From the NCBI GenBank assembly GCA_964016885.1, contig OZ024741.1:17298001-17362000 (forward strand): DNA of 64,000 bases, in the 5' to 3' direction. Below are positions 3,170-25,560 of this stretch, in pieces. How positions within the stretch are numbered: position 1 is the first letter of the stretch; every line of letters starts with the position of its first letter. Both the position numbers and the translations under genes were made by a program. The notes beneath the pieces were generated by a model, which worked only from the letters and a program-made list of their open reading frames with translations, did no database searches and was not told the DNA's origin. Source of the DNA: Eledone cirrhosa. Its lineage: Eukaryota.

Positions 3170-5737
3170 AGAGAGATTAGAGTAACTTCGATAGAGTTCA
3201 GCAAAGAACTAGCGTTAGAGAAAAATAGAAAGGAGAGGGAGCTGGTAGATAAGTTAGACGAGGCTATTTGTAGTGGCATCGCAACTGACGTGCTAGCGGC
3301 GAGAATGGCATTAGACCATTTCTTCAATGCCAAACACGAAGGTTGCATTGTCAGAGCTAAGGCGCGTGCGTTGAGAAACGAGGGAACTAAAGCTGTTCGA
3401 TGGGCCCGCGTGGCGGAGGCGCAGCGTGGTAATAAAACCACAATTCGGTCTTTGGCGGACCGAGACGGACACGAGACAAGCGATTCCAAGCGGATGTGTG
3501 AGGCCTTTCGCCAGCACTTTGCTCGGTTGTTCAGGGAGAGTGGCGAGTCAGAGAGAGTAGCGGATTTCAGTCCCTACCTTGACGGCTTGCCGCGCATCTC
3601 GACGGTCGACGCTGAGCGCTGCGAAAGGCCGATTACTTCAGCCGAAATTCAGGACGCCCTTGTCGGCTGCATGAGGCGCAAGTCACCCGGTTTGGATGGC
3701 CTGCCCTACGAGCTTTACGTAAATATGCCAGACTTGTTCTCCGAACTCCTCGAAGCACTCTACTGCAACTGGCAGCAGAAGGGGAGTATTCCCAGTTCTG
3801 TGAGCAGGGGAGTGGTGATGCTGATAAGGAAAGACGAGAACGAGAGGGATACATTAGACAACTTCAGGCCCATAACTCTGCTCAACACAGAGTTTAAGAT
3901 TTTGGCCAAGGTGTTAGTAAAGAGATTGGCGCTTGTCGTCGAGGATTTGGTTGGAGAGGTGCAAACCTGCGCAATCCCAGCCAGGTCCATACACGACAAT
4001 CTCCACCACATGCGATACATCATAGAGAGGGTAGGGTGTAAACCTGGCTTCGGTGGGGCACTGATCAATTTAGATCAATCGAAAGCATTCGATAGGGTCG
4101 ACCATCGGTATCTGGAGTTTGTCCTCAAAGCAGCTGGCTTCGGCCCTGTCTTTAGAAGCTGGATCGTTGCAATGCACAGCGGCACACGCTCGGTGGTCAA
4201 GGTTAATGGCCACCTCTCGGAACCATTTCGGCTCTCCCGATCGGTCCGTCAAGGGTGCCCTCTCTCTTCCCTTCTGTACGTATTGACTCTCGAGCCTTTA
4301 CTGCGGAAGCTGGAGCTGTTGCAGGGCATCCCTCTCGAACCGGGACGTGGAAAGGCGGTGTCGGCTTATGCGGACGACATCACCGTGATGGTGTCGAACA
4401 CCTCAGAAATCGAGGTGGTCGGCACCTTATTGAAGGAATATGAAAGGTTGACAGGAGCCAAACTTAACCCGGAAAAGTCGGTGGGCTTGCAGCTCGGAAC
4501 CTGGAGAGGCAAGCCCATGCCGTCCAACAGCGTCGTGGGGCGCTGGACGGACGGACCGGTAAAGTTGCTCGGGGTTTGGTTCGGACCAGACCTCCAGGTG
4601 GAAAAGAATTGGGACGAGGTAACGAGCAGAGTAGCCAGTCTCACCCAAAAATGGGCTGGGAGGAAGCTATCACTGAAAGGTCGCGCGGAGGTGGCGAATG
4701 CGTACATCGCGTCCGTCATCTACTACCGCCTAACCGTCGTGCCTTGCCCCCGTCCGCGCCTCGTCAAGTTGGAACGGCTCCTCTTCAAATTCTTGTGGAG
4801 GGGACAAGTTCCGTTGGTGAGGCGGTCCATCTGCTTCCAGCACCCTCTACGCGGAGGGCTGGGCATGCCGTGGCTAATGATGCGCAGACATGCGTTGAAG
4901 CTGCGACATCTCCAGATATTCTGCCTCAATGGTGAACAGGTGTGGTCGCCGTTTATCAGACGGGCCTTTCCGCAGCTCATTTCTTTGACTGAGCTGCAGT
5001 CCTGGGTCAAGAAGAGACCGAGACTGGGTGACTGGCACCTGGAATGTTGCCAGGCACTCACTGCCCTCTACCAAGCGGGCAATGCGATCAGTGGAACTTC
5101 CACTCTCGAGTTCTATAGAGGATTAGTGGTGGGCAAGTGCGATGACATACTCGGAGAAGCTTTGGGCTTCGACGAAGTTGAACTGACCAGTCTGTACCGG
5201 AGGACTTTTGAGCCGGGGACGATGGACAATTTCCAGAAATCCCTCGCTTGGCAGTGCTACCGGGGGGCACTGCCGGTTCGGGATAAACTCTACAGGCACG
5301 GAAGTGCTGTCAGACGGACCTGCCCAAGATGCGCACAGAACGACGAAACCGTTCTGCACGCACTTGTCCAATGTCCGTGCATTACTGACCTGTGGAGTTA
5401 TGTCGAACAGCTACTGTCGCGTGTGGAACGAATCCGGCTATCGGCCGGGTCCATAGTGAAGATCGAGCCGCCACCTTCCTTAGGTCAGGAAGAGCAGGAA
5501 ATTTTCCTCTGTCTGGTGGCAGTTGCGAAAGAGATTATATGGTGGACCAGGTTGAAAGGACTAAAGACAGACACTTTTCTCTTCGGCCAATCCCTCATCA
5601 ACTTCTTCAAGTTTCACCTGGAAAGGAGGGTGAGGGTGGAGAGAGAAGTGCTGCCCCCCAGTACATTTGCTAAAAGGTGGGTGAATGTGGCGAGAATGGC
5701 TAGTGTGAATGGGCCTACTCTGACCATGCGCCTATAG
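3170..5737 (+). pseudogene. Tx1 ORF2 fragment (RT and C-terminal CCHC, APE domain missing)
   Basis: open frame starting REIRVTSIEFSKEL; SPGLDG, FRPITLLN, DQSKAFDRV, QGCPLS, AYADD, CPRC..ETVLHALVQC. Confidence 0.9.
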
Positions 5738-6032
5738 GCTGGCTAACTTAAGGAGAGGGGTGCTCTCCTGGGTGCCCTAGAAGCGCAGGGTGGTTCAGGA
5801 TTGGTGGGGTACCTGAAGCACCCCAGGGTCGTACACCCCCTATCGGGGAATTTATTTTGTTATATTTATGCATAGTTTATTTTATATTTTTATATTTTCA
5901 TTGTTAAATTAGTCTTGCTATTGTGCACTTTTACTCCACCTTATTGTAAACCCCCACTGTCCCTGTCTTTGTATTGTCCCCTACATGTCGGCCCTGGTGG
6001 CTAATAAATGAAATCATTATTATTATTATTGT
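3171..6032 (+). mobile_element. 5'-truncated Tx1/L1-clade LINE nested in the RTE 5'UTR
   Basis: ORF2 homologous to 18241..21669; AATAAA at ~6003 then (ATT)n; 11-bp TSD tactattatta at 3160-3170 and 6033-6043. Confidence 0.9.
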
Positions 6033-6071: not shown

Positions 6072-9000
6072 ATGATGTTCCAGAACAATATAAAAGAGAT
6101 AATTGGCAATTTAGGTTCTGGAACAAAAAAGATAATTGGCAATAAGGGCAGGGGCCCCAGGTTATCACAGCCTGGGCCCACTCGTCATCGTGCCATTATA
6201 ATAGAGCCAAACAAGGCATTTAGTCTTGGCTGCTGGAACGTACGGACGCTGCTTGACGGGGATTCCTTGGAGCGTCCTGAACGAAGGACCGCTCTTGTTG
6301 CAAAGGAGCTTCGACGTTACGATCTTGACATCGTGGCTTTATCTGAGACGAGGTTAGCTGGAGATGGTCATCTTACGGAATTTTGTGGAGAATATACATT
6401 CTTCTGGAAAGGAAGAGATGAAGGAACCAGAAGAGAGGCTGGGGTAGGATTTGCTGTTAAGACTGTACTTGTGAATAAATGAGAAGAATTCCCAGTAGGG
6501 ATTAGTGAGCGTCTTATGTCCATGAGAGTTCCGCTGGACAGAGGAAGATATGCGACCCTGGTGAGTGTGTATGCTCCAACTATGAATTCTGTCGATGAAG
6601 AAAAACTGTCCTTTTACCATGCCTTGAAAGGTGTTTTAAGAAATATCCCTCAGGCAGACAAAGTCATCGTGCTTGGTGACTTTAATGCTAGAGTGGGTAG
6701 AGATTTTAACACATGGAATGTAATCGGAAGGCATGGGGTGGGAAAGTGTAACAACAATGGTATGCTCCTGCTGCAGATGTGTGAGGAGCTGGATCTGTGT
6801 GTTACCAACACCATGTTCCAACGAAAGAACAAATTCAAGACCACATGGATGCATCCTGCATCTAAGGAATGGCATCTTTTGGACTACGTCTTAGTCAGGA
6901 TGCGTGACAGACAGGATGTGCAGTGTGTTCGTGCTCTTGGTGGAGCTGAGTGCTGGACGGACCACCGCCTGGTACGCGCAAAAGTGAAACTAATCACTAA
7001 ACGTAAAATCCGGGCTCCTGGTGTTGCCCTGCCCAAAAGATTGAATGCTGCTCGTCTTAAGGATAAAAATGTGAAGAGGACATTGGAAGAAGAGATGCAG
7101 GCTGCAGATCTTGGTGAGGATTGGCCGACCCTTAAAAAGTCGGTTTATGATGTAGGCAGGCGTGTTCTGGGATTGGTGCAGAGAAAACATCAGGACTGGT
7201 TTAATGAGAATGATGTACATATAGAAGACTTGTTGGCTGATAAGAGGCGTGCTCTGTCACGCTACTTGACGGCAAAACCACAAGAGAGGAATACGTTGCA
7301 TGAGGAACTCAAGGATGTAAAATCACGTGTTAGGCGGAGTCTTTCTCAGATGAAGAATCAGTGGTGGAGTGAGAAGGCTGGTGAGATACAAACTGCGTCA
7401 GATTCCAATAACACAAAGCTGTTGTACAGTCTCTTGCGTGAGGTTTATGGACCGTCTTCTTCTCTGGTGACACCGCTTCGCAGTAAGGATGGCAAAGAAC
7501 TTCTTCGTGACTCACAAGGAATTCTACGAAGGTGGCGAGAGCACTTTGATGATCTTTTGAATCAGCCGTCTGTCGTGAGTGAAGATTTCCTCAATCTCAT
7601 TCCAGAAAGTCCCGTGAAAGTAGCTCTCGCAGAACCTCCGACGCTTGTGGAGGTTGCAGTGGCTATTTCGAAGCTGAACAGTGGAAGATCTCCAGGTATG
7701 GATGGCATACATGCTGAGCTCCTACAATATGGTGGTGAGAGACTCCTGCAACATCTTCACTCTTTGTTTGGCAGGATATTGGCTAATGAATCCGTACCTG
7801 AGGACTGGAGAGATGCAGTAATGGTGGTCTTGTACAAGGGAAAGGGTAACAGGAATGATTGTGGGAACTACAGAGGTATATCATTGCTTTCTGTCGTAGG
7901 AAAAGTTTTATGTAGGGTGCTTCTGGACCGTCTGCTGACACACATTGCAGATTGTGTTCTTCCTGAAAGTGAATCTGGTTTTCGTGCTGGACGCGGCACT
8001 ACTGATATGATCTTCTCAGCTAGACAGCTCCAGGAGAAGTGCATGGAACAAGATCTGTATCAGGTTTTTGTCGATCTGACAAAAGCTTTCGATACTCTTA
8101 ACAGAGATGCATTATGGAAGGTTCTCCAGAAACTTGGTTGCCCTGATAAGTTCCTTGCTTTAGTTAGGTCTTTCCATGACGACATGAAGGCTTGGGTTAA
8201 TGTCGGAGGTAACATGTCGGAGCCTATCTCAGTAAAAAATGGAGTGAAACAGGGGGATATTCCAGCACCGACCCTGTTTGCCATATACTTTGCAATGGTT
8301 TTCTGTATTGCATTCAGGAATTGCGAGCATGGTGTTTACATCCGATATCGAACCTCAGGCAGCATATTTAACATCAGGCGCTTTGCTGCAAAGACAAAAG
8401 TATTTACATCAATCATAAGAGACCTCTTGTATGCAGATGATTGCGATCTTGTAGCGCACACAGAGAGTGATATGCAGCACATTTTGAATGCATTTTCTGA
8501 CGCTTGCACTGCCCTAGGATTGACTGTCAGCCTCAAGAAAACCGTCGTCATGTACCAACCTGCCGCTGGTAAGCAGTACACTGAACCAAATATCTATGTG
8601 TATGGTAAACGGCTTGGAGTGGTTGATCAGTTTGTCTACATGGGAAGCACTGTCAATCGATACAGCAGCCTTGACATTGAAATCTCACTTAGGATTAGGA
8701 AAACAAGTGATGCTTTCGGAAAGCTAGAAAGGCGACTCTGGGGTTGGCGAGACATATGCAGGAGGACAAAGGTAAAGGTGTACAGGGCATGTGTGCTCTC
8801 TTGTCTTCTTTATGCCTGCGAGACTTGGGTCACATATCGACACCACCTTAAGCAATTGGAGCGTTTCCATCAGATGTGTCTCAGACGGAACCATGGCGTT
8901 CACTGGAGGGACCACATCAGTGATGTCGAGATTTTGGAAAGCTCTCTGTGTGACAGTATAGAAGCTCTTGTGCTTAAGCAACGACTCCGTTGGAGTGGTC

Positions 9001-9611
9001 ACCTTGCCAGGATGAAGGATTCTAGAATACCAAAACAACTCTTTTATGGAGAGTTGGTTAAAGGAAAACGACCGCCACATAAACCAAAAAAGAGGTATAA
9101 GGATTCCTTGAAAGCCTCTCTGAAAGACGCTAACATCTCTGCTGATACATGGGAAAATATTGCTGCTGATCGTAATAAATGGAGAAAGACTGTATATGAG
9201 GGAAAATTTGCTTTTGAGGCATCTCGAATCGCATACGAGAAAATAAAGCGGGATGTGAGGAAGGGCATTGCTGTTGCACTTCCAGACGGCGAGGGTCCTC
9301 CTATGGTGCTGACATGCAGCGTATGTGCGAGACTCTGCCTAAGCAAAGCTGGACTCGAAAGTCATCTTCGCAGTCATAAAGTAAGACCAGTGGTTGACTA
9401 CCAGGCTGCTGTTGGAGATGCTACTCATCATGCTTGCCAAACACGTGGTAGAGAATGTAAATCAGCAGGAGGGCTCAAGCGACATGCAAAAGTACACGAA
9501 CTCCAACCACAGCCGACTATTCCCAGTGAATGTTTTGGTTGCCAACTCTGTGCAAGACATTTTAGATCATTGGCTGGGCTAAAAACCCACATTCGATCGC
9601 AGCGCTGTTAG
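6072..9611 (+). pseudogene. RTE ORF (APE, RT, three C2H2 zinc fingers) with a single in-frame TGA at 6480-6482
   Basis: WNVRTL, LSETRL, LGDFNA, TDHRLV, YRGISLL, DLTKAFD, GVKQG, LYADD; ORFs 6072..6482 and 6516..9611 are in the same frame (VNK*EEFPVGISERLM). Confidence 0.9.
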
Positions 9612-12199: not shown

Positions 12200-12502
12200 C
12201 AACAGACAGATAGACATAGATAGTTTGACAGAGTGATAGATAAAAATAAAGATAGAGAGATACATAGATAAATTTCTATTTATTTGCCACGAGGGCACAA
12301 AAGAAGGGGACATTTACACAGTGGGGGAGTTTACATAAATCGAGTAAAGAAAAAAGGAATAACAATAATAATATAACAATAAAAAGTCCTCAAAAGGGAG
12401 GGGGCGTGTTGGGGATTGCACATACCCCCGAAAAGTGTGCAACTCTTTTCGCGGGGGAAGCCCAGAGAGGAGGCGCTCCCCCTTTCCTCTTCACTTCTTC
12501 AC

Positions 12503-15500
12503 CTACAGAACAATGTAGAGAGAAGGCCCATTTACACGGGCCATTCTCGCTTCTTTCACCCACCTTTCATAAAACTGTCTGGGACCAAGCACTTCTCTCT
12601 CCATCCTGATTCTTCTTCCGAAGTGGTATCGGAAGAAGTAAACCAGGTGATGGCCGGAGAGAAAGTCACCCGACCTCAGACCTTTCAGGCGCGTCCACCA
12701 CACAACCTCTTTCATCATGGCTATTACGCACAGAAAGACCGCCTCTGCTTCATTTCTGAAGGGAGGAGGCGGCTTGATGTTCACCACAGACTCGGCGGTT
12801 AATCGAATCGGCGCCACACGCGACAGCAGTCGTTCGACGTAGCCCCACAGATCGGCAACGCCCGGGTAGTGCACCAGTGCATGCGCAACGGTTTCCTCGT
12901 CGCGCACGCATCTGGGACAGATCTTTTTCGCGGGATCCCTGCCCGGGCGCCCGTGTCTGTAGAGCTTTTCTCGAACGGGCAGAGCCCCCCGGTAACACTG
13001 CCAGGCTAGGGACCTCTGGAAGTTGTCCATGGGTCCCGGGCCGAAAGTTCTACCGAACAGGCTGGCCAGTTCGTCCTCCTCCATGCCTAGCGACTCTCCA
13101 AGGGTGTCGTCGCCCCTGCTAGCCACCAACCCTCTATAGAATGTCGAGGTGGATTCTCCACTGACAGTCGGGTCCGCTTGCCAGATAGCCGTGAGCGCCT
13201 GGGCACACTCAGTGTGCCAGTTGCCCAGTTTTCTCGGTCTTTGCTTCACCCAGGATTGCAGTTCGGTGAGCGAGACGAGCTGTGGGAAGGCTCGCCTCAC
13301 AAACGGGGCCCACACCGGCTGACCGTTGAGGAATACCTGTAGATGCCGTAGCCTCAATGCGTGCCTACGCATCAACAGCCACGGCATACCCAGCCCTCCT
13401 TTCGAAGGGTGCTGGCAGCAGATGGATCTCCTCACCATGGGAGGCCGCTTCTTCCAGAGGAACTGGAAGAGCATGCGTTCCATGATGGTGAGCTTTTCCT
13501 TGGGGCAAGGCACGACGGTCAGGCGGTAGTAGATGACGGACGCTATGTAAGCGTTCGTCACCTCCGCCCGACCTTTCAGTGATAGTTTGCACTTGGCCCA
13601 CTTCTGGGTCAGCGCAAACACCCTGCTCGTCACCTCGCCCCAATTCTTCTCCACCTGGAGGTCCGGTCCGAACCAGACCCCGAGCAGCTTCACCGGGCCC
13701 TCCGTCCACCGCCCGACGACACCGTCTAACGGCATCGGTTTGCCCCTCCACGTTCCGAGTTGCAAACCGACTGACTTGTCCTGGTTCAGCTTAGCCCCCG
13801 TCAGCCTTTCGTATTCCTCCAGTAGGGTGGCGATCGCCCCGATTTCCGAGGCGTCCGCCACCATTACTGTTACGTCGTCGGCATAGGCCGAGACCGCTTT
13901 GTGCAATCCCGGTTCCAGGGGTATGCCCCGCAGCAACTCCAACTTCCGCAGCAGTGGCTCGAGAGTCAATACGTACAGAAGGGAGGAGAGGGGGCACCCC
14001 TGTCTGATGGATCGGGTGATTTGAAACGGCTCCGAGAGGTAGCCGTTTACTTTAATCCTAGAGTAGATGTTGCCACTGTGCATGGCAGAAATCCAGCCCC
14101 TGAAAACGGGTCCGAAGCCCGCCGCCGCTAGCACCGCATCCAGGTAACCATGGTCGACCCTATCGAACGCCTTAGATTGATCCAAGTTGATCAAGGCCCC
14201 ACCAAAGCCGGGTTCGTAGCCAACCCTCTCTATGATGTATCGCATGAGGTGGAGGTTGTCGTGAATGGACCTGGACGGGATAGCGCATGTCTGCGCGTCT
14301 CCCACCAAACCACCCACCACAAGCGCCAACCTCTTCGCCAACACCTTGGCCAAAATCTGTAACTCTGCATTCAGCAGAGTTATGGGCCTAAAGTTACTTA
14401 AGTCGTCCCCCTTGCTCTCGTCCTTCCTCACTAGCGTGACCACGCCCTTGGTCACAGAACAGGGAATTCTCCCGTTCTGTTGCCAGTTGCAATAGACAGC
14501 CTCGAGGAGTTCGGAGAACAAGACCGGCATAGCTAAATAAAGTTCGTATGGTAGACCATCGAGACCCGGGGATTTGCGTCTGCTGCATTGGCTGAGCGCT
14601 TCCCCGATTTCAGTGGCTGTGATTGGCCCTTCGCAGCACTCCGCTTCGCCGCTCGAAAGACGCGGTAGACCGTCGAGGTATGGACCGAAGTCCACATCCC
14701 CGTCCGGCCCCCCGCCACCTCCGAACAGTCGAGCAAAGTGCCTTTGAAAGGTCTCGCACATTCGCTCAGGTTCAAGGATCACCCGTCCATCCTGGTCTCG
14801 CAAAGACCGAATGGTGGATTTAATCCCACTCTTGGCTTCTGTCACGCGGGCCCAGCTAACAGCTTTGGTCCCCTCGTTTCCTAAAGCACGTATTTTACTT
14901 CGGACAACGCAGCCTTCGTGCTTCGCGTCAAAGAACTGGCTCAATGCCGTTCTCGTCGCTAACACTCTGGCTACGTCTCCGCTCCTAATCGCCTCTTCTA
15001 GTTTATCTGTTAACTCCCTTTCCCTCCTATTTCTATTCGCCGCTAGTTCCTTACTGTAACCTATCGAACTTACTCTAATCTCTCTCTTTAGAGATATCCA
15101 CCACCTACTGTTGACGATCGCTCCCGTCAACCGCATCTTAACTAAGCTACTAATCCGGTTTCTGTAATCTTTCTTTGTTGGTAAGGACAAGTTCATCTTC
15201 CAGTAACCGGGACCCTGTCTATGCGTTCTATCAAGGTTGACCACGCAGGTCACTAATTTGTGATCTGAATAGCCAACCATGATCAGTTCTGGACAACTAA
15301 ATACGTCCCTATCCTTACTCCTAACCAAAAACCTATCTAGGTACGATCTAGATTGTCCACTGCGGTTTGCCCAGGTCCAGGTTGGCGCAGTTGGACAATC
15401 TAGTCGAAATCTATCGACCAGGTCGAATCGATCGAGTAACCCCTTGAGGCTGCTACACCCCCCTCTATCGGGACATGCCCCTGCATAGTCCCAACGCGCA

Positions 15501-15932
15501 TCTAGGATTCCATTCCAGTCCCCCACTAAAAGCAGGGAACGCGACGTTCCTAGAAAAGTCTCCAGACGTTGGAAGAAGTCGGCTCTCTCCGCCCCGAAGG
15601 GAGCATAAAGACCGACCAGTCTGAAAGCCCCGCCTTCACCACCTCCGACGTCCAGCACCAGTAATCGACCCCCCGGGTCCGAGTGAACAATCTGTACGTC
15701 GAGAGTCAGACGTTTATCCAGCAGTACGGCAACTCCCCCCCCCGCCTCCGGGTTGACAGAGAGATGCGTGCATCTCAAAGTCATCGAAGGCGGGCGCCAG
15801 CTGTCTCACGCTGCTGATCCGACTCTCGCAAACAACCATCACATCTATACTTTGTGACCTGAGGTCACTTAGAAGCTTTGCTTGCTTCCAAGCTGAGCTC
15901 AGGCCACGCGCGTTCAAACAGCCAACTCTCAA
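12503..15932 (-). pseudogene. Tx1 ORF2 (APE-RT-CCHC), copy 1, frameshifted
   Basis: C9 run at 15735-15743 versus C8 in copy 2 splits the ORF into 15714..15932 and 12503..15784; last CCHC Cys changed to Tyr (HALVHYPG). Confidence 0.85.
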
Positions 15933-15937
15933 TTGAT

Positions 15938-17773
15938 CTATTTTGGTGTTGAAAGTGAAGAAAGAAAAGCACTTACCTCTCCGGGTTGCGTAATTTCCAT
16001 GGCATCAGGTGTGTTGGGTGGAGGGATGTTTTGTGGTGGTGTGGGGGTACACGTGTGTGGTGGGGTTGGGGTATTTGGAGTTGTGTCAGGGAGAGGGGCG
16101 GTTATGGGGAAATCTTTCAAGAGGACGCGATTCAACGGTTTTAAACAGGGGGGGCTCACGTCCCGTCTAAATTGTTCTTTTAAGGAACGATAAAGGTCCA
16201 GAGGGACCTTTATCATTTTTAAATGGGTGAAGTTCTCTGTTGAGATAAAGTTTGGCCCTTCGGTCTGCACCATAGGGTTATTGTTTATTAATTTAACCAG
16301 TTTTTTGTTTTCTTTATTTATATATGTGTATTGCAACGTCTTTTTTTGTGATGCTGTCAATGTTTCGGAGAGGGGAGGCGCAGATTTATTTTTGTTTGTT
16401 GAGGGTGGGGTGTTTTTGATTGGAGTTGGTGTTTGTGTGTGGGTTATTTGTGGTGTGCTGGGTGTGTGTTTTCTTTTTTTTCTTTTAACTTGTCTGAAGG
16501 CTTCTCCTCCTTCTTCTTCAGAAGTTGGGGGAAACTCTTCAGCGCTAGGTGGGAGGGACGTGTTGTGTGGTTGTTTTTTTTTTGCGGGAGGGGTAGATTT
16601 GTTACTGTTTTTTTTATTATTTGTTTGGAATGGGTTTTGTGGTGGTGGTGGTGGTAATGTTTGTGTCGTGCTTGTGGTTGGTAATGGTGGTGGTGATGTT
16701 TGTGTTGTGGTTGGTGGTGGTGATTTTTGTGTCGTGCTTGTGTTTGGTGCTGGTGGTGGTGATGTTTGTGTTGTGTTTGTGGTTGGTGGTGTCTGTATTT
16801 TGTTTGCTGTGTGTGGTATTAGTGTATTTTTGGAGGTGGGTGGTGCTGGTGTACTGTTTGTGGTGGGTGTGGGCAATAGTCCTTTTTGGGGGATACGTTT
16901 CGGGCAGTTAGCCTTAACGTGTCCCCTTTCCATGCATAAATAGCATGCTGGTCTTCTCCCCTCTACAATTATGTCTATTGGGGTAAGGTCATCCAGCCAG
17001 ATGCGATCCGGGATTTGTGCTATTCTTTCGGGCCTCATTTGGACTAGTATGTCGAGGCCCATTCCCAGGAACGCATCTCCAGTTGCCTTCCCCATTGACA
17101 GCATAGTGTCTTCGCCCATATCAATGAAGCCAGCAATAGCCCACCAGAAGTCCATTGTGGGCAGCATTGTTTTTACTTTTACCCTCTGTGTTCTTCTACC
17201 CATGTAGGAGGGATAGAAGCTATATGTTGTCGACGAGAGTGGGCTTAGGGAAAGCTGAACCGCCGTTTCTTTGTCTCTTGTTAGGACCGAAATGCTGCCA
17301 TAGAGTCGGTCCTTTCGTATGAAGAGAATATTCTTCATATAGTCTTTTAGGACTAACTCTATTTCCATTTGGCTGGGCTGTGCTGGCTTTCTTGACTGGT
17401 TTAGTATAGTTCTGTATATAACTGTGTTTTCTGCTCTGGCTTTCTTGAATTCTGGGGGGGAGTTAATGGAAAACATTCCGTTCTCCCCCAAAACAATATG
17501 TTTCTTTGCCTCGGCCAGTTTTTCTCTGGCGGCAGTTAGGTCAATTGGTGTGTATGTAATGGATTGCTTTGTTTTCTGGGCGAAAGTTGCCCTGTCGTTA
17601 TTTGTATTATTTTCTGTTTGTTTGTTTTCTGTTTGCTCATTTTCCTTAACATTTGTTTTTTCATTTTGTTTGTTTGTTTCAATGTCTAATTTTGTTGTAA
17701 TTATTTTTTGTTCTTCAGACTTGGGGGGCGTGGCAGAGCTAATGGCAGACATGTCTGCCATCTTTTCCGCCAT
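15938..17773 (-). CDS. Tx1 ORF1 gag-like nucleic-acid-binding protein, copy 1
   Basis: first ATG (MAEKMADM); zinc knuckle CYLCMERGHVKANC (CX2CX4HX4C); Pro/Thr-rich tract; basic KRKKRK. Confidence 0.85.
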   Translation of the reverse strand: MAEKMADMSAISSATPPKSEEQKIITTKLDIETNKQNEKTNVKENEQTENKQTENNTNNDRATFAQKTKQSITYTPIDLTAAREKLAEAKKHIVLGENGMFSINSPPEFKKARAENTVIYRTILNQSRKPAQPSQMEIELVLKDYMKNILFIRKDRLYGSISVLTRDKETAVQLSLSPLSSTTYSFYPSYMGRRTQRVKVKTMLPTMDFWWAIAGFIDMGEDTMLSMGKATGDAFLGMGLDILVQMRPERIAQIPDRIWLDDLTPIDIIVEGRRPACYLCMERGHVKANCPKRIPQKGLLPTPTTNSTPAPPTSKNTLIPHTANKIQTPPTTNTTQTSPPPAPNTSTTQKSPPPTTTQTSPPPLPTTSTTQTLPPPPPQNPFQTNNKKNSNKSTPPAKKKQPHNTSLPPSAEEFPPTSEEEGGEAFRQVKRKKRKHTPSTPQITHTQTPTPIKNTPPSTNKNKSAPPLSETLTASQKKTLQYTYINKENKKLVKLINNNPMVQTEGPNFISTENFTHLKMIKVPLDLYRSLKEQFRRDVSPPCLKPLNRVLLKDFPITAPLPDTTPNTPTPPHTCTPTPPQNIPPPNTPDAMEITQPGEVSAFLSSLSTPK

Positions 17774-18240
17774 GCTGCCAAGAAAGAAATTTTTCGGCAA
17801 AAATAGATATTTATTTTACCCCCTAAAAAGGGGGTAAATGCAAAAATGTTTCCCTAAATAACAGGGGTTAGTGTTCCAAATGTGTTGCACTAAAAAATTT
17901 ATCCGGTACTTACAATAGTAAGGGTAAATCCCGATGGAATAGCGGAGCCGATGCGAAGCGTGTCTTACTCTATCAAGATAGATAGATAGATAGAGAGATA
18001 CATAGATAAATTTCTATTTATTTGCCACGAGGGCACAAAAGAAGGGGACATTTACACAGTGGGGGAGTTTACATAAATCGAGTAAAGAAAAAAGGAATAA
18101 CAATAATAATATAACAATAAAAAGTCCTCAAAAGGGAGGGGGCGTGTTGGGGATTGCACATACCCCCGAAAAGTGTGCAACTCTTTTCGCGGGGGAAGCC
18201 CAGAGAGGAGGCGCTCCCCCTTTCCTCTTCACTTCTTCAC

Positions 18241-21200
18241 CTACAGAACAATGTAGAGAGAAGGCCCATTTACACGGGCCATTCTCGCTTCTTTCACCCA
18301 CCTTTCATAAAACTGTCTGGGACCAAGCACTTCTCTCTCCATCCTGATTCTTCTTCCGAAGTGGTATCGGAAGAAGTAAACCAGGTGATGGCCGGAGAGA
18401 AAGTCACCCGACCTCAGACCTTTCAGGCGCGTCCACCACACAACCTCTTTCATCATGGCTATTACGCACAGAAAGACCGCCTCTGCTTCATTTCTGAAGG
18501 GAGGAGGCGGCTTGATGTTCACCACAGACTCGGCGGTTAATCGAATCGGCGCCACACGCGACAGCAGTCGTTCGACGTAGCCCCACAGATCGGCAACGCC
18601 CGGGCAGTGTACCAGTGCATGCGCAACGGTTTCCTCGTCGCGCACGCATCTGGGACAGATCTTTTTCGCGGGATCCCTGCCCGGGCGCCCGTGTCTGTAG
18701 AGCTTTTCTCGAACGGGCAGAGCCCCCCGGTAACACTGCCAGGCTAGGGACCTCTGGAAGTTGTCCATGGGTCCCGGGCCGAAAGTTCTACCGAACAGGC
18801 TGGCCAGTTCGTCCTCCTCCATGCCTAGCGACTCTCCAAGGGTGTCGTCGCCCCTGCTAGCCACCAACCCTCTATAGAATGTCGAGGTGGATTCTCCACT
18901 GACAGTCGGGTCCGCTTGCCAGATAGCCGTGAGCGCCTGGGCACACTCAGTGTGCCAGTTGCCCAGTTTTCTCGGTCTTTGCTTCACCCAGGATTGCAGT
19001 TCGGTGAGCGAGACGAGCTGTGGGAAGGCTCGCCTCACAAACGGGGCCCACACCGGCTGACCGTTGAGGAATACCTGTAGATGCCGTAGCCTCAATGCGT
19101 GCCTACGCATCAACAGCCACGGCATACCCAGCCCTCCTTTCGAAGGGTGCTGGCAGCAGATGGATCTCCTCACCATGGGAGGCCGCTTCTTCCAGAGGAA
19201 CTGGAAGAGCATGCGCTCCATGATGGTGAGCTTTTCCTTGGGGCAAGGCACGACGGTCAGGCGGTAGTAGATGACGGACGCTATGTAAGCGTTCGTCACC
19301 TCCGCCCGACCTTTCAGTGATAGTTTGCACTTGGCCCACTTCTGGGTCAGCGCAAACACCCTGCTCGTCACCTCGCCCCAATTCTTCTCCACCTGGAGGT
19401 CCGGTCCGAACCAGACCCCGAGCAGCTTCACCGGGCCCTCCGTCCACCGCCCGACGACACCGTCTAACGGCATCGGTTTGCCCCTCCACGTTCCGAGTTG
19501 CAAACCGACTGACTTGTCCTGGTTCAGCTTAGCCCCCGTCAGCCTTTCGTATTCCTCCAGTAGGGTGGCGATCGCCCCGATTTCCGAGGCGTCCGCCACC
19601 ATTACTGTTACGTCGTCGGCATAGGCCGAGACCGCTTTGTGCAATCCCGGTTCCAGGGGTATGCCCCGCAGCAACTCCAACTTCCGCAGCAGTGGCTCGA
19701 GAGTCAATACGTACAGAAGGGAGGAGAGGGGGCACCCCTGTCTGATGGATCGGGTGATTTGAAACGGCTCCGAGAGGTAGCCGTTTACTTTAATCCTAGA
19801 GTAGATGTTGCCACTGTGCATGGCAGAAATCCAGCCCCTGAAAACGGGTCCGAAGCCCGCCGCCGCTAGCACCGCATCCAGGTAACCATGGTCGACCCTA
19901 TCGAACGCCTTAGATTGATCCAAGTTGATCAGGGCCCCACCAAAGCCGGGTTCGTAGCCAACCCTCTCTATGATGTATCGCATGAGGTGGAGGTTGTCGT
20001 GAATGGACCTGGACGGGATAGCGCATGTCTGCGCGTCTCCCACCAAACCACCCACCACAAGCGCCAACCTCTTCGCCAACACCTTGGCCAAAATCTGTAA
20101 CTCTGCATTCAGCAGAGTTATGGGCCTAAAGTTACTTAAGTCGTCCCCCTTGCTCTCGTCCTTCCTCACTAGCGTGACCACGCCCTTGGTCACAGAACAT
20201 GGAATTCTCCCGTTCTGTTGCCAGTTGCAATAGACAGCCTCGAGGAGTTCGGAGAACAAGACCGGCATAGCTAAATAAAGTTCGTATGGTAGACCATCGA
20301 GACCCGGGGATTTGCGTCTGCTGCATTGGCTGAGCGCTTCCCCGATTTCAGTGGCTGTGATTGGCCCTTCGCAGCACTCCGCTTCGCCGCTCGAAAGACG
20401 CGGTAGACCGTCGAGGTATGGACCGAAGTCCACATCCCCGTCCGGCCCCCCGCCACCTCCGAACAGTCGAGCAAAGTGCCTTTGAAAGGTCTCGCACATT
20501 CGCTCAGGTTCAAGGATCACCCGTCCATCCTGGTCTCGCAAAGACCGAATGGTGGATTTAATCCCACTCTTGGCTTCTGTCACGCGGGCCCAGCTAACAG
20601 CTTTGGTCCCCTCGTTTCCTAAAGCACGTATTTTACTTCGGACAACGCAGCCTTCGTGCTTCGCGTCAAAGAACTGGCTCAATGCCGTTCTCGTCGCTAA
20701 CACTCTGGCTACGTCTCCGCTCCTAATCGCCTCTTCTAGTTTATCTGTTAACTCCCTTTCCCTCCTATTTCTATTCGCCGCTAGTTCCTTACTGTAACCT
20801 ATCGAACTTACTCTAATCTCTCTCTTTAGAGATATCCACCACCTACTGTTGACGATCGCTCCCGTCAACCGCATCTTAACTAAGCTACTAATCCGGTTTC
20901 TGTAATCTTTCTTTGTCGGTAAGGACAAGTTCATCTTCCAGTAACCGGGACCCTGTCTATGCGTTCTATCAAGGTTGACCACGCAGGTCACTAATTTGTG
21001 ATCTGAATAGCCAACCATGATCAGTTCTGGACAACTAAATACGTCCCTATCCTTACTCCTAACCAAAAACCTATCTAGGTACGATCTAGATTGTCCACTG
21101 CGGTTTGCCCAGGTCCAGGTTGGCGCAGTTGGACAATCTAGTCGAAATCTATCGACCAGGTCGAATCGATCGAGTAACCCCTTGAGGCTGCTACACCCCC

Positions 21201-21669
21201 CTCTATCGGGACATGCCCCTGCATAGTCCCAACGCGCATCTAGGATTCCATTCCAGTCCCCCACTAAAAGCAGGGAACGCGACGTTCCTAGAAAAGTCTC
21301 CAGACGTTGGAAGAAGTCGGCTCTCTCCGCCCCGAAGGGAGCATAAAGACCGACCAGTCTGAAAGCCCCGCCTTCACCACCTCCGACGTCCAGCACCAGT
21401 AATCGACCCCCCGGGTCCGAGTGAACAATCTGTACGTCGAGAGTCAGACGTTTATCCAGCAGTACGGCAACTCCCCCCCCGCCTCCGGGTTGACAGAGAG
21501 ATGCGTGCATCTCAAAGTCATCGAAGGCGGGCGCCAGCTGTCTCACGCTGCTGATCCGACTCTCGCAAACAACCATCACATCTATACTTTGTGACCTGAG
21601 GTCACTTAGAAGCTTTGCTTGCTTCCAAGCTGAGCTCAGGCCACGCGCGTTCAAACAGCCAACTCTCAA
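18241..21669 (-). CDS. Tx1 ORF2: APE endonuclease, reverse transcriptase, CCHC (1142 aa counted from a TTG)
   Basis: LNARGL, CESR, VGDWN, YLDRFL, SDHK; QGCPLS, AYADD; CPRC..ETVAHALVHC; uninterrupted. Confidence 0.93.
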   Translation of the reverse strand: MRVGCLNARGLSSAWKQAKLLSDLRSQSIDVMVVCESRISSVRQLAPAFDDFEMHASLCQPGGGGGVAVLLDKRLTLDVQIVHSDPGGRLLVLDVGGGEGGAFRLVGLYAPFGAERADFFQRLETFLGTSRSLLLVGDWNGILDARWDYAGACPDRGGCSSLKGLLDRFDLVDRFRLDCPTAPTWTWANRSGQSRSYLDRFLVRSKDRDVFSCPELIMVGYSDHKLVTCVVNLDRTHRQGPGYWKMNLSLPTKKDYRNRISSLVKMRLTGAIVNSRWWISLKREIRVSSIGYSKELAANRNRRERELTDKLEEAIRSGDVARVLATRTALSQFFDAKHEGCVVRSKIRALGNEGTKAVSWARVTEAKSGIKSTIRSLRDQDGRVILEPERMCETFQRHFARLFGGGGGPDGDVDFGPYLDGLPRLSSGEAECCEGPITATEIGEALSQCSRRKSPGLDGLPYELYLAMPVLFSELLEAVYCNWQQNGRIPCSVTKGVVTLVRKDESKGDDLSNFRPITLLNAELQILAKVLAKRLALVVGGLVGDAQTCAIPSRSIHDNLHLMRYIIERVGYEPGFGGALINLDQSKAFDRVDHGYLDAVLAAAGFGPVFRGWISAMHSGNIYSRIKVNGYLSEPFQITRSIRQGCPLSSLLYVLTLEPLLRKLELLRGIPLEPGLHKAVSAYADDVTVMVADASEIGAIATLLEEYERLTGAKLNQDKSVGLQLGTWRGKPMPLDGVVGRWTEGPVKLLGVWFGPDLQVEKNWGEVTSRVFALTQKWAKCKLSLKGRAEVTNAYIASVIYYRLTVVPCPKEKLTIMERMLFQFLWKKRPPMVRRSICCQHPSKGGLGMPWLLMRRHALRLRHLQVFLNGQPVWAPFVRRAFPQLVSLTELQSWVKQRPRKLGNWHTECAQALTAIWQADPTVSGESTSTFYRGLVASRGDDTLGESLGMEEDELASLFGRTFGPGPMDNFQRSLAWQCYRGALPVREKLYRHGRPGRDPAKKICPRCVRDEETVAHALVHCPGVADLWGYVERLLSRVAPIRLTAESVVNIKPPPPFRNEAEAVFLCVIAMMKEVVWWTRLKGLRSGDFLSGHHLVYFFRYHFGRRIRMEREVLGPRQFYERWVKEARMARVNGPSLYIVL

Positions 21670-21674
21670 TTGAT

Positions 21675-23510
21675 CTATTTTGGTGTTGAAAGTGAAGAAA
21701 GAAAAGCACTTACCTCTCCGGGTTGCGTAATTTCCATGGCATCAGGTGTGTTGGGTGGAGGGATGTTTTGTGGTGGTGTGGGGGTACACGTGTGTGGTGG
21801 GGTTGGGGTATTTGGAGTTGTGTCAGGGAGAGGGGCGGTTATGGGGAAATCTTTCAAGAGGACGCGATTCAACGGTTTTAAACAGGGGGGGCTCACGTCC
21901 CGTCTAAATTGTTCTTTTAAGGAACGATAAAGGTCCAGAGGGACCTTTATCATTTTTAAATGGGTGAAGTTCTCTGTTGAGATAAAGTTTGGCCCTTCGG
22001 TCTGCACCATAGGGTTATTGTTTATTAATTTAACCAGTTTTTTGTTTTCTTTATTTATATATGTGTATTGCAACGTCTTTTTTTGTGATGCTGTCAATGT
22101 TTCGGAGAGGGGAGGCGCAGATTTATTTTTGTTTGTTGAGGGTGGGGTGTTTTTGATTGGAGTTGGTGTTTGTGTGTGGGTTATTTGTGGTGTGCTGGGT
22201 GTGTGTTTTCTTTTTTTTCTTTTAACTTGTCTGAAGGCTTCTCCTCCTTCTTCTTCAGAAGTTGGGGGAAACTCTTCAGCGCTAGGTGGGAGGGACGTGT
22301 TGTGTGGTTGTTTTTTTTTTGCGGGAGGGGTAGATTTGTTACTGTTTTTTTTATTATTTGTTTGGAATGGGTTTTGTGGTGGTGGTGGTGGTAATGTTTG
22401 TGTCGTGCTTGTGGTTGGTAATGGTGGTGGTGATGTTTGTGTTGTGGTTGGTGGTGGTGATTTTTGTGTCGTGCTTGTGTTTGGTGCTGGTGGTGGTGAT
22501 GTTTGTGTTGTGTTTGTGGTTGGTGGTGTCTGTATTTTGTTTGCTGTGTGTGGTATTAGTGTATTTTTGGAGGTGGGTGGTGCTGGTGTACTGTTTGTGG
22601 TGGGTGTGGGCAATAGTCCTTTTTGGGGGATACGTTTCGGGCAGTTAGCCTTAACGTGTCCCCTTTCCATGCATAAATAGCATGCTGGTCTTCTCCCCTC
22701 TACAATTATGTCTATTGGGGTAAGGTCATCCAGCCAGATGCGATCCGGGATTTGTGCTATTCTTTCGGGCCTCATTTGGACTAGTATGTCGAGGCCCATT
22801 CCCAGGAACGCATCTCCAGTTGCCTTCCCCATTGACAGCATAGTGTCTTCGCCCATATCAATGAAGCCAGCAATAGCCCACCAGAAGTCCATTGTGGGCA
22901 GCATTGTTTTTACTTTTACCCTCTGTGTTCTTCTACCCATGTAGGAGGGATAGAAGCTATATGTTGTCGACGAGAGTGGGCTTAGGGAAAGCTGAACCGC
23001 CGTTTCTTTGTCTCTTGTTAGGACCGAAATGCTGCCATAGAGTCGGTCCTTTCGTATGAAGAGAATATTCTTCATATAGTCTTTTAGGACTAACTCTATT
23101 TCCATTTGGCTGGGCTGTGCTGGCTTTCTTGACTGGTTTAGTATAGTTCTGTATATAACTGTGTTTTCTTCTCTGGCTTTCTTGAATTCTGGGGGGGAGT
23201 TAATGGAAAACATTCCGTTCTCCCCCAAAACAATATGTTTCTTTGCTTCGGCCAGTTTTTCTCTGGCGGCAGTTAGGTCAATTGGTGTGTATGTAATGGA
23301 TTGCTTTGTTTTCTGGGCGAAAGTTGCCCTGTCGTTATTTGTATTATTTTCTGTTTGTTTGTTTTCTGTTTGCTCATTTTCCTTAACATTTGTTTTTTCA
23401 TTTTGTTTGTTTGTTTCAATGTCTAATTTTGTTGTAATTATTTTTTGTTCTTCAGACTTGGGGGGCGTGGCAGAGCTAATGGCAGACATGTCTGCCATCT
23501 TTTCCGCCAT
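21675..23510 (-). CDS. Tx1 ORF1, copy 2
   Basis: as copy 1, one visible amino-acid change (KARA/KARE). Confidence 0.85.
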   Translation of the reverse strand: MAEKMADMSAISSATPPKSEEQKIITTKLDIETNKQNEKTNVKENEQTENKQTENNTNNDRATFAQKTKQSITYTPIDLTAAREKLAEAKKHIVLGENGMFSINSPPEFKKAREENTVIYRTILNQSRKPAQPSQMEIELVLKDYMKNILFIRKDRLYGSISVLTRDKETAVQLSLSPLSSTTYSFYPSYMGRRTQRVKVKTMLPTMDFWWAIAGFIDMGEDTMLSMGKATGDAFLGMGLDILVQMRPERIAQIPDRIWLDDLTPIDIIVEGRRPACYLCMERGHVKANCPKRIPQKGLLPTPTTNSTPAPPTSKNTLIPHTANKIQTPPTTNTTQTSPPPAPNTSTTQKSPPPTTTQTSPPPLPTTSTTQTLPPPPPQNPFQTNNKKNSNKSTPPAKKKQPHNTSLPPSAEEFPPTSEEEGGEAFRQVKRKKRKHTPSTPQITHTQTPTPIKNTPPSTNKNKSAPPLSETLTASQKKTLQYTYINKENKKLVKLINNNPMVQTEGPNFISTENFTHLKMIKVPLDLYRSLKEQFRRDVSPPCLKPLNRVLLKDFPITAPLPDTTPNTPTPPHTCTPTPPQNIPPPNTPDAMEITQPGEVSAFLSSLSTPK

Positions 23511-23853
23511 GCTGCCAAGAAAGAAATTTTTCGGCAAAAATAGATATTTATTTTACCCCCTAAAAAGGGGGTAAATGCAAAAATGTTTCCCTAAATAACA
23601 GGGGTTAGTGTTCCAAATGTGTTGCACTAAAAAATTTATCCGGTACTTACAATAGTAAGGGTAAATCCCGATGGAATAGCGGAGCCGATGCGAAGCGTGT
23701 CTTACTCTATCAAGATAGATAGATAGATAGAGAGATACATAGATAGATATATAGATAGATACACAGACAGGCAGATGTATAGACAGATAGTTAGATATAT
23801 AGATGGATAGATAGAGAGAGAGAGAGATAGATAGAGAGATAGAGAGATAGATA

Positions 23854-24500
23854 AATTTCTTTATTAGCCCCAAGGGCACAAAAGAAGGGGACAAATACAA
23901 ATGGGGAGTTTACATACAGGCATATGAAAATAAAACTATTAACAAAATAACACATAACAATTGAAATCCCCAATAGGGGGAGGTGTTACACAGGGGTTGT
24001 ACACACCCCGAAAAAATGTACAACCCTCATCTCCAGGAGCACCAAGAACGGGTACTCCCTTCCTCTCTTCCTCTTTTTCCTCAACCTACAGGCTTATATA
24101 GAGAGAAGGCCCAACCACTCGGGCCATCTTTGCCACATTCACCCACCTTTTATAAACTTTGCTGGGGTACAGCACCTCTCTCTCCATCCTGATTCTTCTT
24201 CCAAAATGATATTTGAAAAAACGAATCAGTTGCTCGCCGGAGAGAAAGGTGTCTGACCTCAGCCCTTTTAACCTCGTCCACCATATAACCTCTTTCATCA
24301 TAGCCATAACACATAGGAAAACCGCCTCTCCCTCGTTTTTGAAGGATGGTGGCTGTTTGATCATGACAATGGACTCGGTGGTCAATTGGATTGGTCCCAC
24401 CCGCGACAATAGTCGTTCTACATAGCCCCACAGGTCGGTAACGCCCGGGCAGTGTACAAATGCGTGCGCGACGGTTTCCTCGTCGCGCACGCATCTCGGA
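23854..24500 (-). mobile_element. 5'-truncated Tx1 relative (diverged subfamily)
   Basis: PRCVRDEETVAHAFVHCPG...GPSLYISL plus 3'UTR; (GATA)n on both sides. Confidence 0.9.
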
Positions 24501-24510
24501 TAGATAGATA

Positions 24511-24552
24511 ACTTTCTTTTTATTTGCCACCAGGGCATCAAAAGTGGGACAT
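24511..24552 (-). mobile_element. extreme 3' stub of a Tx1 element
   Basis: tttatttgccaccagggc...gggaca matches the family 3' end; ggatagatagata repeated at 24498-24510 and 24553-24565. Confidence 0.7.
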
Positions 24553-24623
24553 GGATAGATAGATAGAAGTGTGTATGAAGTTAAGTGAACAGGGAACAGT
24601 GAAAAGGACTGTCACTGATCATT

Positions 24624-24920
24624 GTTGTAGTGGTGGTGGTGGTGGTGGTGATGTGGGGTGGTGTGATGTGGGGTGGTGTGATGTGGGGTGGTGGTGATGT
24701 GGTGTGATGTGGGGTGGTGATGTGGGGTGGTGGTGTGGTGATGTGGTGTGGTGATGTGGTGTGGTGTGGTGTGTGGTGATGTGGTGTGGTGTGGGGTGCT
24801 GTGATGTGGGGTGGTGTGGGGTGGTGTGGGTGGGATGGTGTAGAGTGGTGGTGTGGGGTGGTGTGGTGTAGAGTGGTGGTGTGGGGTGGAGTGGGGTGGT
24901 GTGGTGTCATTGTTGTTGTT
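24624..24920. repeat. degenerate (GTG/GTGTG)n simple repeat
   Basis: direct reading. Confidence 0.9.
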
Positions 24921-25178
24921 GCTGAAAGGTTTATTGTTTTCAGAGCAACATGTGGTTATAATACACACACTTTCATATATCTATATCTATATCTATATGT
25001 GTGCGTGTATATATATATTTACATACATATATACACATACAATATCTATCACTCACATATGTGTGTGTGTGTGTACTTATACAAGTATGCGTGTGTGTGT
25101 TGGGCCTCCGTCGGTTCTGACTTCGACGATTCCACTTGTTCGAACCATGGAATAGAAAGACAGACAGACATATAGATA

Positions 25179-25537
25179 TGTTTCTTTATTAGCCACAGGG
25201 GCACAAAAGAAGGGGACAAATACAAAGGGGGAAGTTTACATACAATAAATACGTGTAAAATATCACAAATACAATTTAAAAGTTAATCGATTTTCCCCAA
25301 TAGGGGGAGACATTACATATGGGTAACACATACCCCCGAAAAAATATGTGCAACCCTAATCTCCAGGAGTACGAAGAGTTTGTACCCCTTTCCTCTCTTC
25401 CTCTTTTTCCTCAACCTACAGGCTGATATAGAGAGAAGGCCCATTCACTCGGGCCATTCTCGCCACTTTCACCCACCTTTCATAAAACTTGCTGGGGTAC
25501 AGCACCTCTCTTTCCATCCTGATTCTTTTTCTAAAGT
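25179..25537 (-). mobile_element. 5'-truncated Tx1 relative
   Basis: HFRKRIRMEREVL...GPSLYISL plus 3'UTR; 16-bp TSD gacagacatatagata at 25163-25178 and 25538-25553. Confidence 0.88.
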
Positions 25538-25560
25538 GACAGACATATAGATAGATAGAC

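What the first reader, a model, noticed from the sequence alone, without database searches (positions are those of the whole stretch)
12251..25553. Tx1-clade LINE lineage that repeatedly targets (GATA)n, always nicking after TAGATA
Seen: five insertions from at least two or three subfamilies, all on the minus strand. Their 3' junctions on the plus strand read TAGATA|aatttct (12270, 18008, 23853), TAGATA|actttct (24510) and TAGATA|tgtttct (25178). There is no poly(A). TSDs of 13-21 bp consist of degenerate GATA repeat, so the repeat pre-existed rather than being an element tail. Known: Tx1-clade APE elements include sequence-specific families (TC and TTC microsatellites, U2 snRNA, tRNA spacers). 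Inference: this APE is specific for GATA/TATC repeats, a target I do not recall for Tx1, though I cannot confirm novelty. Copy 2 encodes an intact enzyme that could be tested.
Basis: partly seen in the sequence, partly recalled or inferred. Interest (0 to 1): 0.78.

Follow-up and report, generated by a model that had tools for sequence, protein, structure and literature searches.

The report
Jumping gene family targeting GATA repeats
A young family of LINE retrotransposons in this (likely octopus) genome sits thousands of times inside GATA repeats, nearly always facing the same way, while close sister families sit in AAT repeats or at one spot of a 72-base repeat, which would let one test how such targeting changes.

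Summary
All five junctions are at the stated coordinates. GATA directly adjoins the 3' end of 689 of 722 copies of one subfamily and 5,197 of 5,752 of another (background about 0.6%). The reverse orientation gave 6 matches among 22,321 ends. The repeat is a target, not a tail: young 5'-truncated copies also end in it (19 of 22), and duplications of 13-21 bp copy unique flanking bases. 'Always TAGATA' overstates it: 72 of 90 sampled ends, with TATATA and GGTA also used. The nick cannot be placed closer than about 2 nt. The same lineage holds sisters that insert into (AAT)n (30 of 30; one copy is in the window) and at one site of a 72-bp minisatellite (30 of 30). The element is an L1-group APE-RT LINE; Tx1 membership is likely but was not tested on a tree. 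An AATAAA lies 6-8 nt from the junction in 145 of 145 ends, so read-through RNA pairing with the target may help targeting. Nine literature searches found no GATA-targeting Tx1; Repbase could not be checked. Verdict: new variant of a known kind.

The parts
12250..12270 (+). 21-bp target-site duplication, first copy (degenerate GATA tract)
12271..17975 (-). Copy 1, full length, subfamily A; ORF2 frameshifted by an extra base in the C run at about 15735
17976..18008 (+). 12-nt (AGAT)3 extension plus second copy of the 21-bp duplication
18009..23712 (-). Copy 2, full length (5,704 bp), subfamily A, both ORFs open
18017..18034 (-). Conserved 3' terminus: GCC-N5-GGC mini-hairpin followed by AATAAA 8 nt before the junction
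   Evidence: hairpin only 3-4 bp, little covariation
18241..21678 (-). ORF2: APE endonuclease, RT and C-terminal zinc knuckle; begins at ATA overlapping the ORF1 stop, no AUG
21708..21713 (-). Splice-donor-like AG|GTAAGT motif, conserved in all subfamilies examined, just before the ORF2 start
21675..23510 (-). ORF1, 611 aa, with a CCHC knuckle (CX2CX4HX4C) and a likely RRM-type region
   Evidence: no Pfam hit
23713..23745 (+). 12-nt (AGAT)3 extension plus third copy of the 21-bp duplication
23854..24499 (-). Copy 3, 5'-truncated, subfamily B; 9 exact duplicated bp
24511..24551 (-). Copy 4, 41 bp, C-like subfamily; 13-bp duplication that includes two bases of copy 3's end, so it inserted after copy 3
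25179..25537 (-). Copy 5, 5'-truncated, subfamily D; 16-bp duplication
3170..6015 (+). 5'-truncated sister element (74% DNA identity) with the same 3' terminus, inserted in (ATT)n/(AAT)n

Best explanation
This is a young, high-copy L1-group (likely Tx1-clade) LINE family whose copies sit in pre-existing (GATA)n tracts in one orientation with target-site duplications, and which likely inserts by target-primed reverse transcription after its endonuclease nicks at or within 2 nt of TAGATA^GATA. Shown: polarity, pre-existence of the target, duplications mostly 11-21 bp, no poly(A), and head-to-tail arrays of mixed subfamilies separated by short GATA tracts. Inferred: the APE domain nicks the GATA strand; the RNA is cleaved a few nt past the element end (AAUAAA lies 6-8 nt from the junction), so it carries some UAUC units that pair with the primer and fix the junction; full-length RNA also carries upstream repeat, which pairs with the second strand; each insertion regenerates the target and invites the next. 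Sister lineages with the same RNA end have moved to (AAT)n and to one site of a 72-bp minisatellite.
For: GATA at the 3' junction: 689 of 722, 5,197 of 5,752, and 16,827 of 22,321 for a degenerate terminus that also covers the non-GATA sisters. Reverse orientation: 6 matches. 5' side: 40 of 40 full-length A copies start AGATAG; 19 of 22 truncated copies at least 98% identical to a partner end in target-like repeat and the other 3 are internal rearrangements; control 45 of 5,600 points inside the element. Duplications with unique bases: L311 19 bp, L285 19 bp, L324 18 bp, L158 16-17 bp. T at -4 and G at -3 occur with the same repeat on both sides (L158, L285, L292), so these bases come from the target. 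APE catalytic residues are invariant in a 45-sequence alignment; the model (pLDDT 94) matches L1-type endonuclease best. Youth: 13 of 42 full-length copies have both ORFs open, median 31 substitutions per pair (sample biased to close copies). Precedent for RNA-target annealing in SART1 and R1Bm (PMC7265360 passages).
Against: Among truncated copies 85-98% identical, only 16 of 31 end in target-like repeat; 5 are rearranged and 10 unexplained. Among those with no close reference, 2 of 6. 18 of 90 sampled ends are not TAGATA. Some sites have a single GATA (L309), so a tract is not strictly needed. About 3,100 of the 22,321 ends fall in none of the classes I counted. No enzyme assay, no RNA data and no empty allele from another individual were obtained. 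Tx1 placement rests on architecture and recalled motifs.
Confidence: 0.8

Rival explanations
1. RNA-led targeting: the endonuclease is only loosely specific (alternating-A, TA-step DNA) and the target is chosen mainly by pairing of the read-through RNA end with the nicked strand, so a lineage inherits the target of its source locus.
For: AATAAA lies 6-8 nt before the junction in 145 of 145 ends, so cleavage should fall in the flank (general knowledge of poly(A) signals). The minisatellite lineage has the same hairpin-loop tip (NRSGTSRS) as GATA subfamily D and 82% endonuclease identity. Its site can be read as TATATA^GAGT, close to TA(G/T)ATA^GA, yet 30 of 30 copies are in the minisatellite although TA/GA junctions are common. 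At 21 reconstructed sites A is present at -1, -3 and -5 in all 21.
Against: GATA-lineage copies also insert where a UAUC tail would pair only 3-5 nt (L158, L285, L309). The minisatellite lineage has 15 lineage-specific endonuclease changes, one next to the catalytic Tyr, and the AAT lineages are only 57% identical. Isolated Tx1L endonuclease is site-specific in vitro (PMC1950540 passages).
Confidence: 0.25
2. The repeat is an element-encoded (TATC)n tail, as in LINEs with microsatellite tails, and insertion is not sequence-specific.
For: GATA adjoins the 3' end in 90-95% of copies; 15 of 59 truncated copies have neither target-like repeat nor recognisable element sequence at the 5' side or lack a close reference (10 + 3 'other', plus borderline rows).
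Against: Truncated 5' junctions lie in the same repeat (19 of 22 young copies); degenerate and unique bases are duplicated on both sides; copies in (TA)n or (GGTA)n have that repeat, not GATA, at the junction.
Confidence: 0.02
3. Insertion is random and copies survive mainly in GATA tracts by selection or passive accumulation.
For: The genome is very rich in microsatellites; passive accumulation was proposed for Drosophila Waldo-A/B (PMC3812793 passage).
Against: Base-precise phase and strict polarity; commoner repeats (AT, AC, ACC, ACAT) are not used by subfamily A; the youngest copies are the most specific.
Confidence: 0.02
4. Locally, copies 1 and 2 are one insertion doubled by unequal exchange or assembly, so the window holds four events, not five.
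For: Identical 33-nt 5' junctions and 99.84% identity.
Against: No shared private variant; copy 2 carries 23170T with five other loci while copy 1 has the majority base; each is as close or closer to unlinked copies.
Confidence: 0.15

Closest known systems
Kibi and Koshi (Tx1 clade, teleosts) and crocodilian Tx1 families in (TTCC)n/(TTTC)n
   Same: APE-type LINEs inserted in microsatellites (PMC4494074 and PMC3812793 passages).
   Different: Their targets are (TC)n, (TTC)n, (TTCC)n and (TTTC)n. Here the targets are (GATA)n, (AAT)n and a 72-bp minisatellite, in a mollusc. GATA was not found in the main text of PMC4494074; its Fig. 3 and supplement, which list more targets including satellites, could not be seen.
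Tx1L (Xenopus), Keno, Dewa, Mutsu
   Same: Sequence-specific APE-RT elements. The endonuclease model's top structural hits are the L1 endonuclease and its Tx1L-loop chimera, which score alike.
   Different: They target a transposon, U2 snRNA, a tRNA spacer or 5S genes. The betaB6-betaB5 loop here aligns without gaps to the L1 loop, whereas Tx1L's is longer (eleven residues, PMC1950540 passage).
Dong (TAA)n, Waldo (ACAY)n, Mino (AC)n
   Same: Microsatellite-targeted LINEs; Dong shares the (TAA)n target with the AAT sister lineage (PMC3812793 passage).
   Different: Different clades (R1 for Waldo and Mino; R4 for Dong, as labelled Dong-R4 in PMC13282606), so the shared target would be convergence.
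SART1 and R1Bm
   Same: RNA-target annealing helps accurate initiation (PMC7265360 passages).
   Different: R1 clade, telomere or 28S targets; SART1 has a poly(A) junction.
L1-Tx1 families of Octopus vulgaris (PMC13282606)
   Same: 13 recently active L1-Tx1 families with 421 insertions are tabulated; these may include relatives of this element.
   Different: The word 'target' does not occur in that paper's main text; its library sequences were not compared.

Membership tests
L1 group (APE-RT non-LTR retrotransposon) | ORF2 with N-terminal APE, RT and C-terminal Cys-His knuckle, no RNase H | tested here: met
   Pfam Exo_endo_phos, RVT_1 and zf-RVT (the last below its curated cut-off), no RNase H hit
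L1 group (APE-RT non-LTR retrotransposon) | ORF2 closer to L1 than to other solved retroelement proteins | tested here: met
   Human L1 ORF2p E=2e-49 over residues 11-861, R2 E=1e-22; fold search tops out at L1 endonuclease. Only solved structures were compared.
L1 group (APE-RT non-LTR retrotransposon) | 5' truncations and variable target-site duplications | tested here: met
Tx1 clade | RT phylogeny grouping with Tx1L, Keno, Kibi, Koshi | not testable with these tools
   No named Tx1 protein among the listed hits of three homolog searches, cluster look-up (27) or atlas (29). Motifs DQSKAFDRVDH and SAYADD resemble Tx1 as recalled, a lead only.
Tx1 clade | Target-sequence preference (paper's criterion: more than 20% of flanks) | tested here: met
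   90-95%; criterion from PMC4494074
Tx1 clade | ORF1 with RRM and CCHC knuckle (recalled as typical) | tested here: inconclusive
   CCHC motif is in the sequence; atlas neighbours carry zf-CCHC, RRM only on a minority; no Pfam hit
Kibi/Koshi sub-lineage | Pyrimidine-run targets (TC)n, (TTC)n, (TTCC)n, (TTTC)n | tested here: not met
   Targets are GATA, AAT and a minisatellite
Sequence-specific APE (as Tx1L-EN) | Isolated endonuclease nicks the target site in vitro | not testable with these tools
   Needs a bench assay
LINEs with an encoded microsatellite tail | Repeat on the 3' side only, not part of the duplication | tested here: not met

The most novel reading that the evidence does not exclude
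Target identity in this radiation is carried partly by the RNA. Transcripts read past AAUAAA into the flank, that tail pairs with the nicked strand, and a founder that lands in a new repeat (the 72-bp minisatellite) starts a new site-specific lineage with little change to the endonuclease: a natural, heritable RNA-assisted retargeting of an APE-type LINE.
Probability: 0.2. Interest if true: 0.85.

Novelty: new variant of a known kind. Interest (0 to 1): 0.6.

Why it matters
How APE-type LINEs recognise microsatellites is called 'not well understood' in a 2013 review (PMC3812793 passage), and grafting the Tx1L loop onto L1 did not transfer specificity (PMC1950540 passages). This genome holds closely related lineages with three different targets, endonucleases 57-82% identical and many open reading frames. 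That is a ready natural series for separating protein from RNA contributions to site choice, which also bears on using LINEs for targeted insertion. More than 22,000 such ends also make the family a real force on this genome's repeat landscape, and a caution for GATA microsatellite markers in these animals.

Tried and rejected
Poly(A)-primed copies: 6 matches, none a run abutting the element. A large further target class with A or C at -4: only 474 ends, the listed ones mostly single-base variants of GATA or TAAT. Rfam scan of the 5'/3' end region: nothing near a gathering score, no ribozyme. 3' hairpin covariation: weak, and one of 11 rows had wrong coordinates. Single-sequence fold: poor, pLDDT 54, replaced by the alignment-based fold. 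Sequencing runs: no RNA holder listed. A second read-laying on other species gave no result, so the cross-species junction evidence rests alone. No genome-wide GATA fraction for subfamily C; a 30-locus sample stands in. A mismatched-pair control for duplications was uninformative for pure repeats (831 of 1,056 pairs match), so only non-periodic duplications were used for length. A splice from the conserved donor to the nearby AG in subfamily A does not join ORF1 and ORF2 in frame (read from the sequence). Kojima and Fujiwara 2004 and Anzai 2005 are not held. Earlier scan findings: none.
Full report
Observation. The region holds two full-length elements (12271-17975 and 18009-23712) and three 5'-truncated relatives, all on the minus strand. 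Duplications are 21, 21, 9 (exact part), 13 and 16 bp. Copies 1 and 2 differ at 9 places; copy 1 has a frameshift in a C run inside the endonuclease region. Among 42 full-length copies they share no private variant, and copy 2 carries a base found at five other loci that copy 1 lacks. Two insertions at one site are therefore likelier than a duplication.

What the element is. ORF2 has APE, RT and zinc-knuckle domains. Its best solved relative is human L1 ORF2p, and an alignment-based model of the endonuclease (pLDDT 94) matches L1 endonuclease and its Tx1L-loop chimera equally. The catalytic Glu, Asp, Asn, Asp and His are invariant across 45 relatives. The closest named relatives are from Argonauta (68%) and a cuttlefish (52%), so the host is probably an octopod; I did not identify it further. 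No named Tx1 protein appeared among the listed hits, so Tx1 membership rests on architecture, target behaviour and motifs I recall. Subfamily A has ATA, overlapping the ORF1 stop, where the other subfamilies have CCAA(C/T)ATG; 0 of 65 junctions read had ATG (some copies were fetched twice). AUG-independent ORF2 translation is known for human L1 (recalled).

Genome-wide 3' junctions. Patterns made only of element sequence counted 722 subfamily-A ends, of which 689 have GATA two bases before the pattern. For subfamily D the figures are 5,752 and 5,197. A degenerate terminus gave 22,321 ends: 16,827 with GATA, 1,546 with TAAT, 474 with A or C at -4 and 6 matches with the repeat reversed. Background GATA frequency is 0.57% in 41,460 strand-positions of host DNA. 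In position-ordered samples of 30 loci each, TAGATA ended the flank in 26 (A), 25 (D) and 21 (C); C also had TATATA in 5, and GGTA tracts are used too.

Target, not tail. All 40 distinct full-length A copies begin their 5' flank with AGATAG. Of 59 truncated copies among 145 ends, those at least 98% identical to a partner end in target-like repeat in 19 of 22 cases, the other 3 being internal rearrangements. Those 85-98% identical do so in 16 of 31 (5 rearranged, 10 unexplained), and those without a close reference in 2 of 6; the control was 45 of 5,600. Non-periodic duplications copy unique bases on both sides, for example 19 bp at L311 and L285, 18 bp at L324 and 16-17 bp at L158 (18 of the 112 junctions were hand-picked, and lengths above about 21 are inflated by periodicity). 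Because TATA and GGTA sites show the same repeat on both sides, positions -4 and -3 come from the target. Positions -2 and -1 never varied informatively, so the nick is placed only to within 2 nt. One site (L309) has a single GATA in unique DNA.

Sister lineages. The element at window 3170-6015 has the same 3' terminus but lies in (AAT)n, as do 30 of 30 loci sampled from 116; 10 of 18 truncated ones end in (AAT)n on the 5' side (counted by eye). A third lineage of 325 copies sits at one position of a 72-bp minisatellite in 30 of 30 loci, with a 9-bp duplication in the one short copy; its listed places on the three longest contigs lie near their ends. In a quick RT tree of 31 rows it nests among GATA subfamilies (SH-aLRT 98, no bootstrap); the endonuclease tree of 26 rows leaves its position open; the AAT lineages branch apart, with midpoint rooting only (rows lacking a 90%-length match were left out). 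Endonuclease identity to copy 2 is 63-79% among GATA subfamilies, 73% for the minisatellite lineage and 57% for AAT.

Mechanism. The best reading is target-primed reverse transcription from a nick in the GATA strand, with the duplication regenerating the target, which explains the mixed head-to-tail arrays. All 145 ends have AATAAA 6-8 nt before the junction (the search required only an A/T spacer there), so the RNA probably ends in the flank and pairs with the primer. That would explain a precise junction without poly(A), as proposed for SART1 and R1Bm (PMC7265360 passages). The 5' repeat phase is fixed in 41 of 41 full-length A copies but spread over three phases in 20 truncated copies, which suggests pairing of co-transcribed upstream repeat with the second strand. 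These RNA steps are inferred; no RNA data were available.

Other species. Reads of another sample of the same species show a GATA loose end at the terminus (2,582 reads); one contig each from organisms C and E shows the same. This is thin evidence that the target is shared.

Literature. Passages only were read from PMC4494074, PMC3812793, PMC4640811, PMC1950540, PMC13282606, PMC7265360, PMC3706591, PMC5907723 and PMC3747384. The Tx1 microsatellite targets named there are (TC)n, (TTC)n, (TTCC)n and (TTTC)n; a figure legend also mentions satellites. Nine searches found no GATA-targeting non-LTR element. Repbase, Dfam, the 2004 primary paper and the figure and supplement of PMC4494074 could not be seen and may list one.

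Verdict. A real and strongly supported site-specific LINE radiation. Microsatellite targeting by Tx1-type elements is known; GATA appears to be a new target, and three targets in one closely related, probably active lineage make the basis of target choice testable. New variant of a known kind, interest 0.6.

Noticed in passing
window 21708-21713 (-) and 15971-15976 region of copy 1; loci L249-L303: A perfect splice-donor-like motif (AG|GTAAGT, GTGAGT or GTAGGT) followed by a pyrimidine tract sits 25-55 nt before the ORF2 start in every subfamily examined, whether ORF1 stops at +1, at +5 or about 36 nt later. It may be a real donor or a U1-binding site.
   Followed up: partly
window 21676-21678 (-): The young subfamily A has lost the ORF2 AUG (ATA overlapping the ORF1 stop) yet most of 150 scored copies keep an open frame of about 1,166 codons.
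   Followed up: partly
L269, L271, L273, L274, L277, L279, L282, L283, L296, L302, L303, L329-L358: Subfamily inserted at one site of a 72-bp minisatellite, in tandem arrays and near contig ends; full-length copies resume at a fixed point 9 nt further along the unit.
   Followed up: yes
window 36886-64000: 27 kb array of a 10-bp unit ATAGACATAC, about 2,700 copies, 90% matches; it resembles the GATA target but holds no copy of the element's terminus in this window.
   Followed up: no
window 6100-9611 (+): An unrelated APE-RT LINE with C2H2-type zinc fingers at the C-terminus.
   Followed up: no
window 1443-2600 (-): Fragment of another LINE with a zf-RVT match, bounded by (TATG)n tracts on both sides; a possible further microsatellite-associated family.
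   Followed up: no
window 15727-15735 and 21465-21472: The C run encoding a poly-Gly stretch of the endonuclease varies in length among copies; a frameshift hot spot or a homopolymer assembly error.
   Followed up: partly
L041, L053, L288, L307: Several loci of one subfamily share a degenerate repeat spacer at the 5' end, as if upstream target was co-transcribed and passed on.
   Followed up: partly
window 31643-33273: 46-bp AT-rich minisatellite, 36 copies.
   Followed up: no
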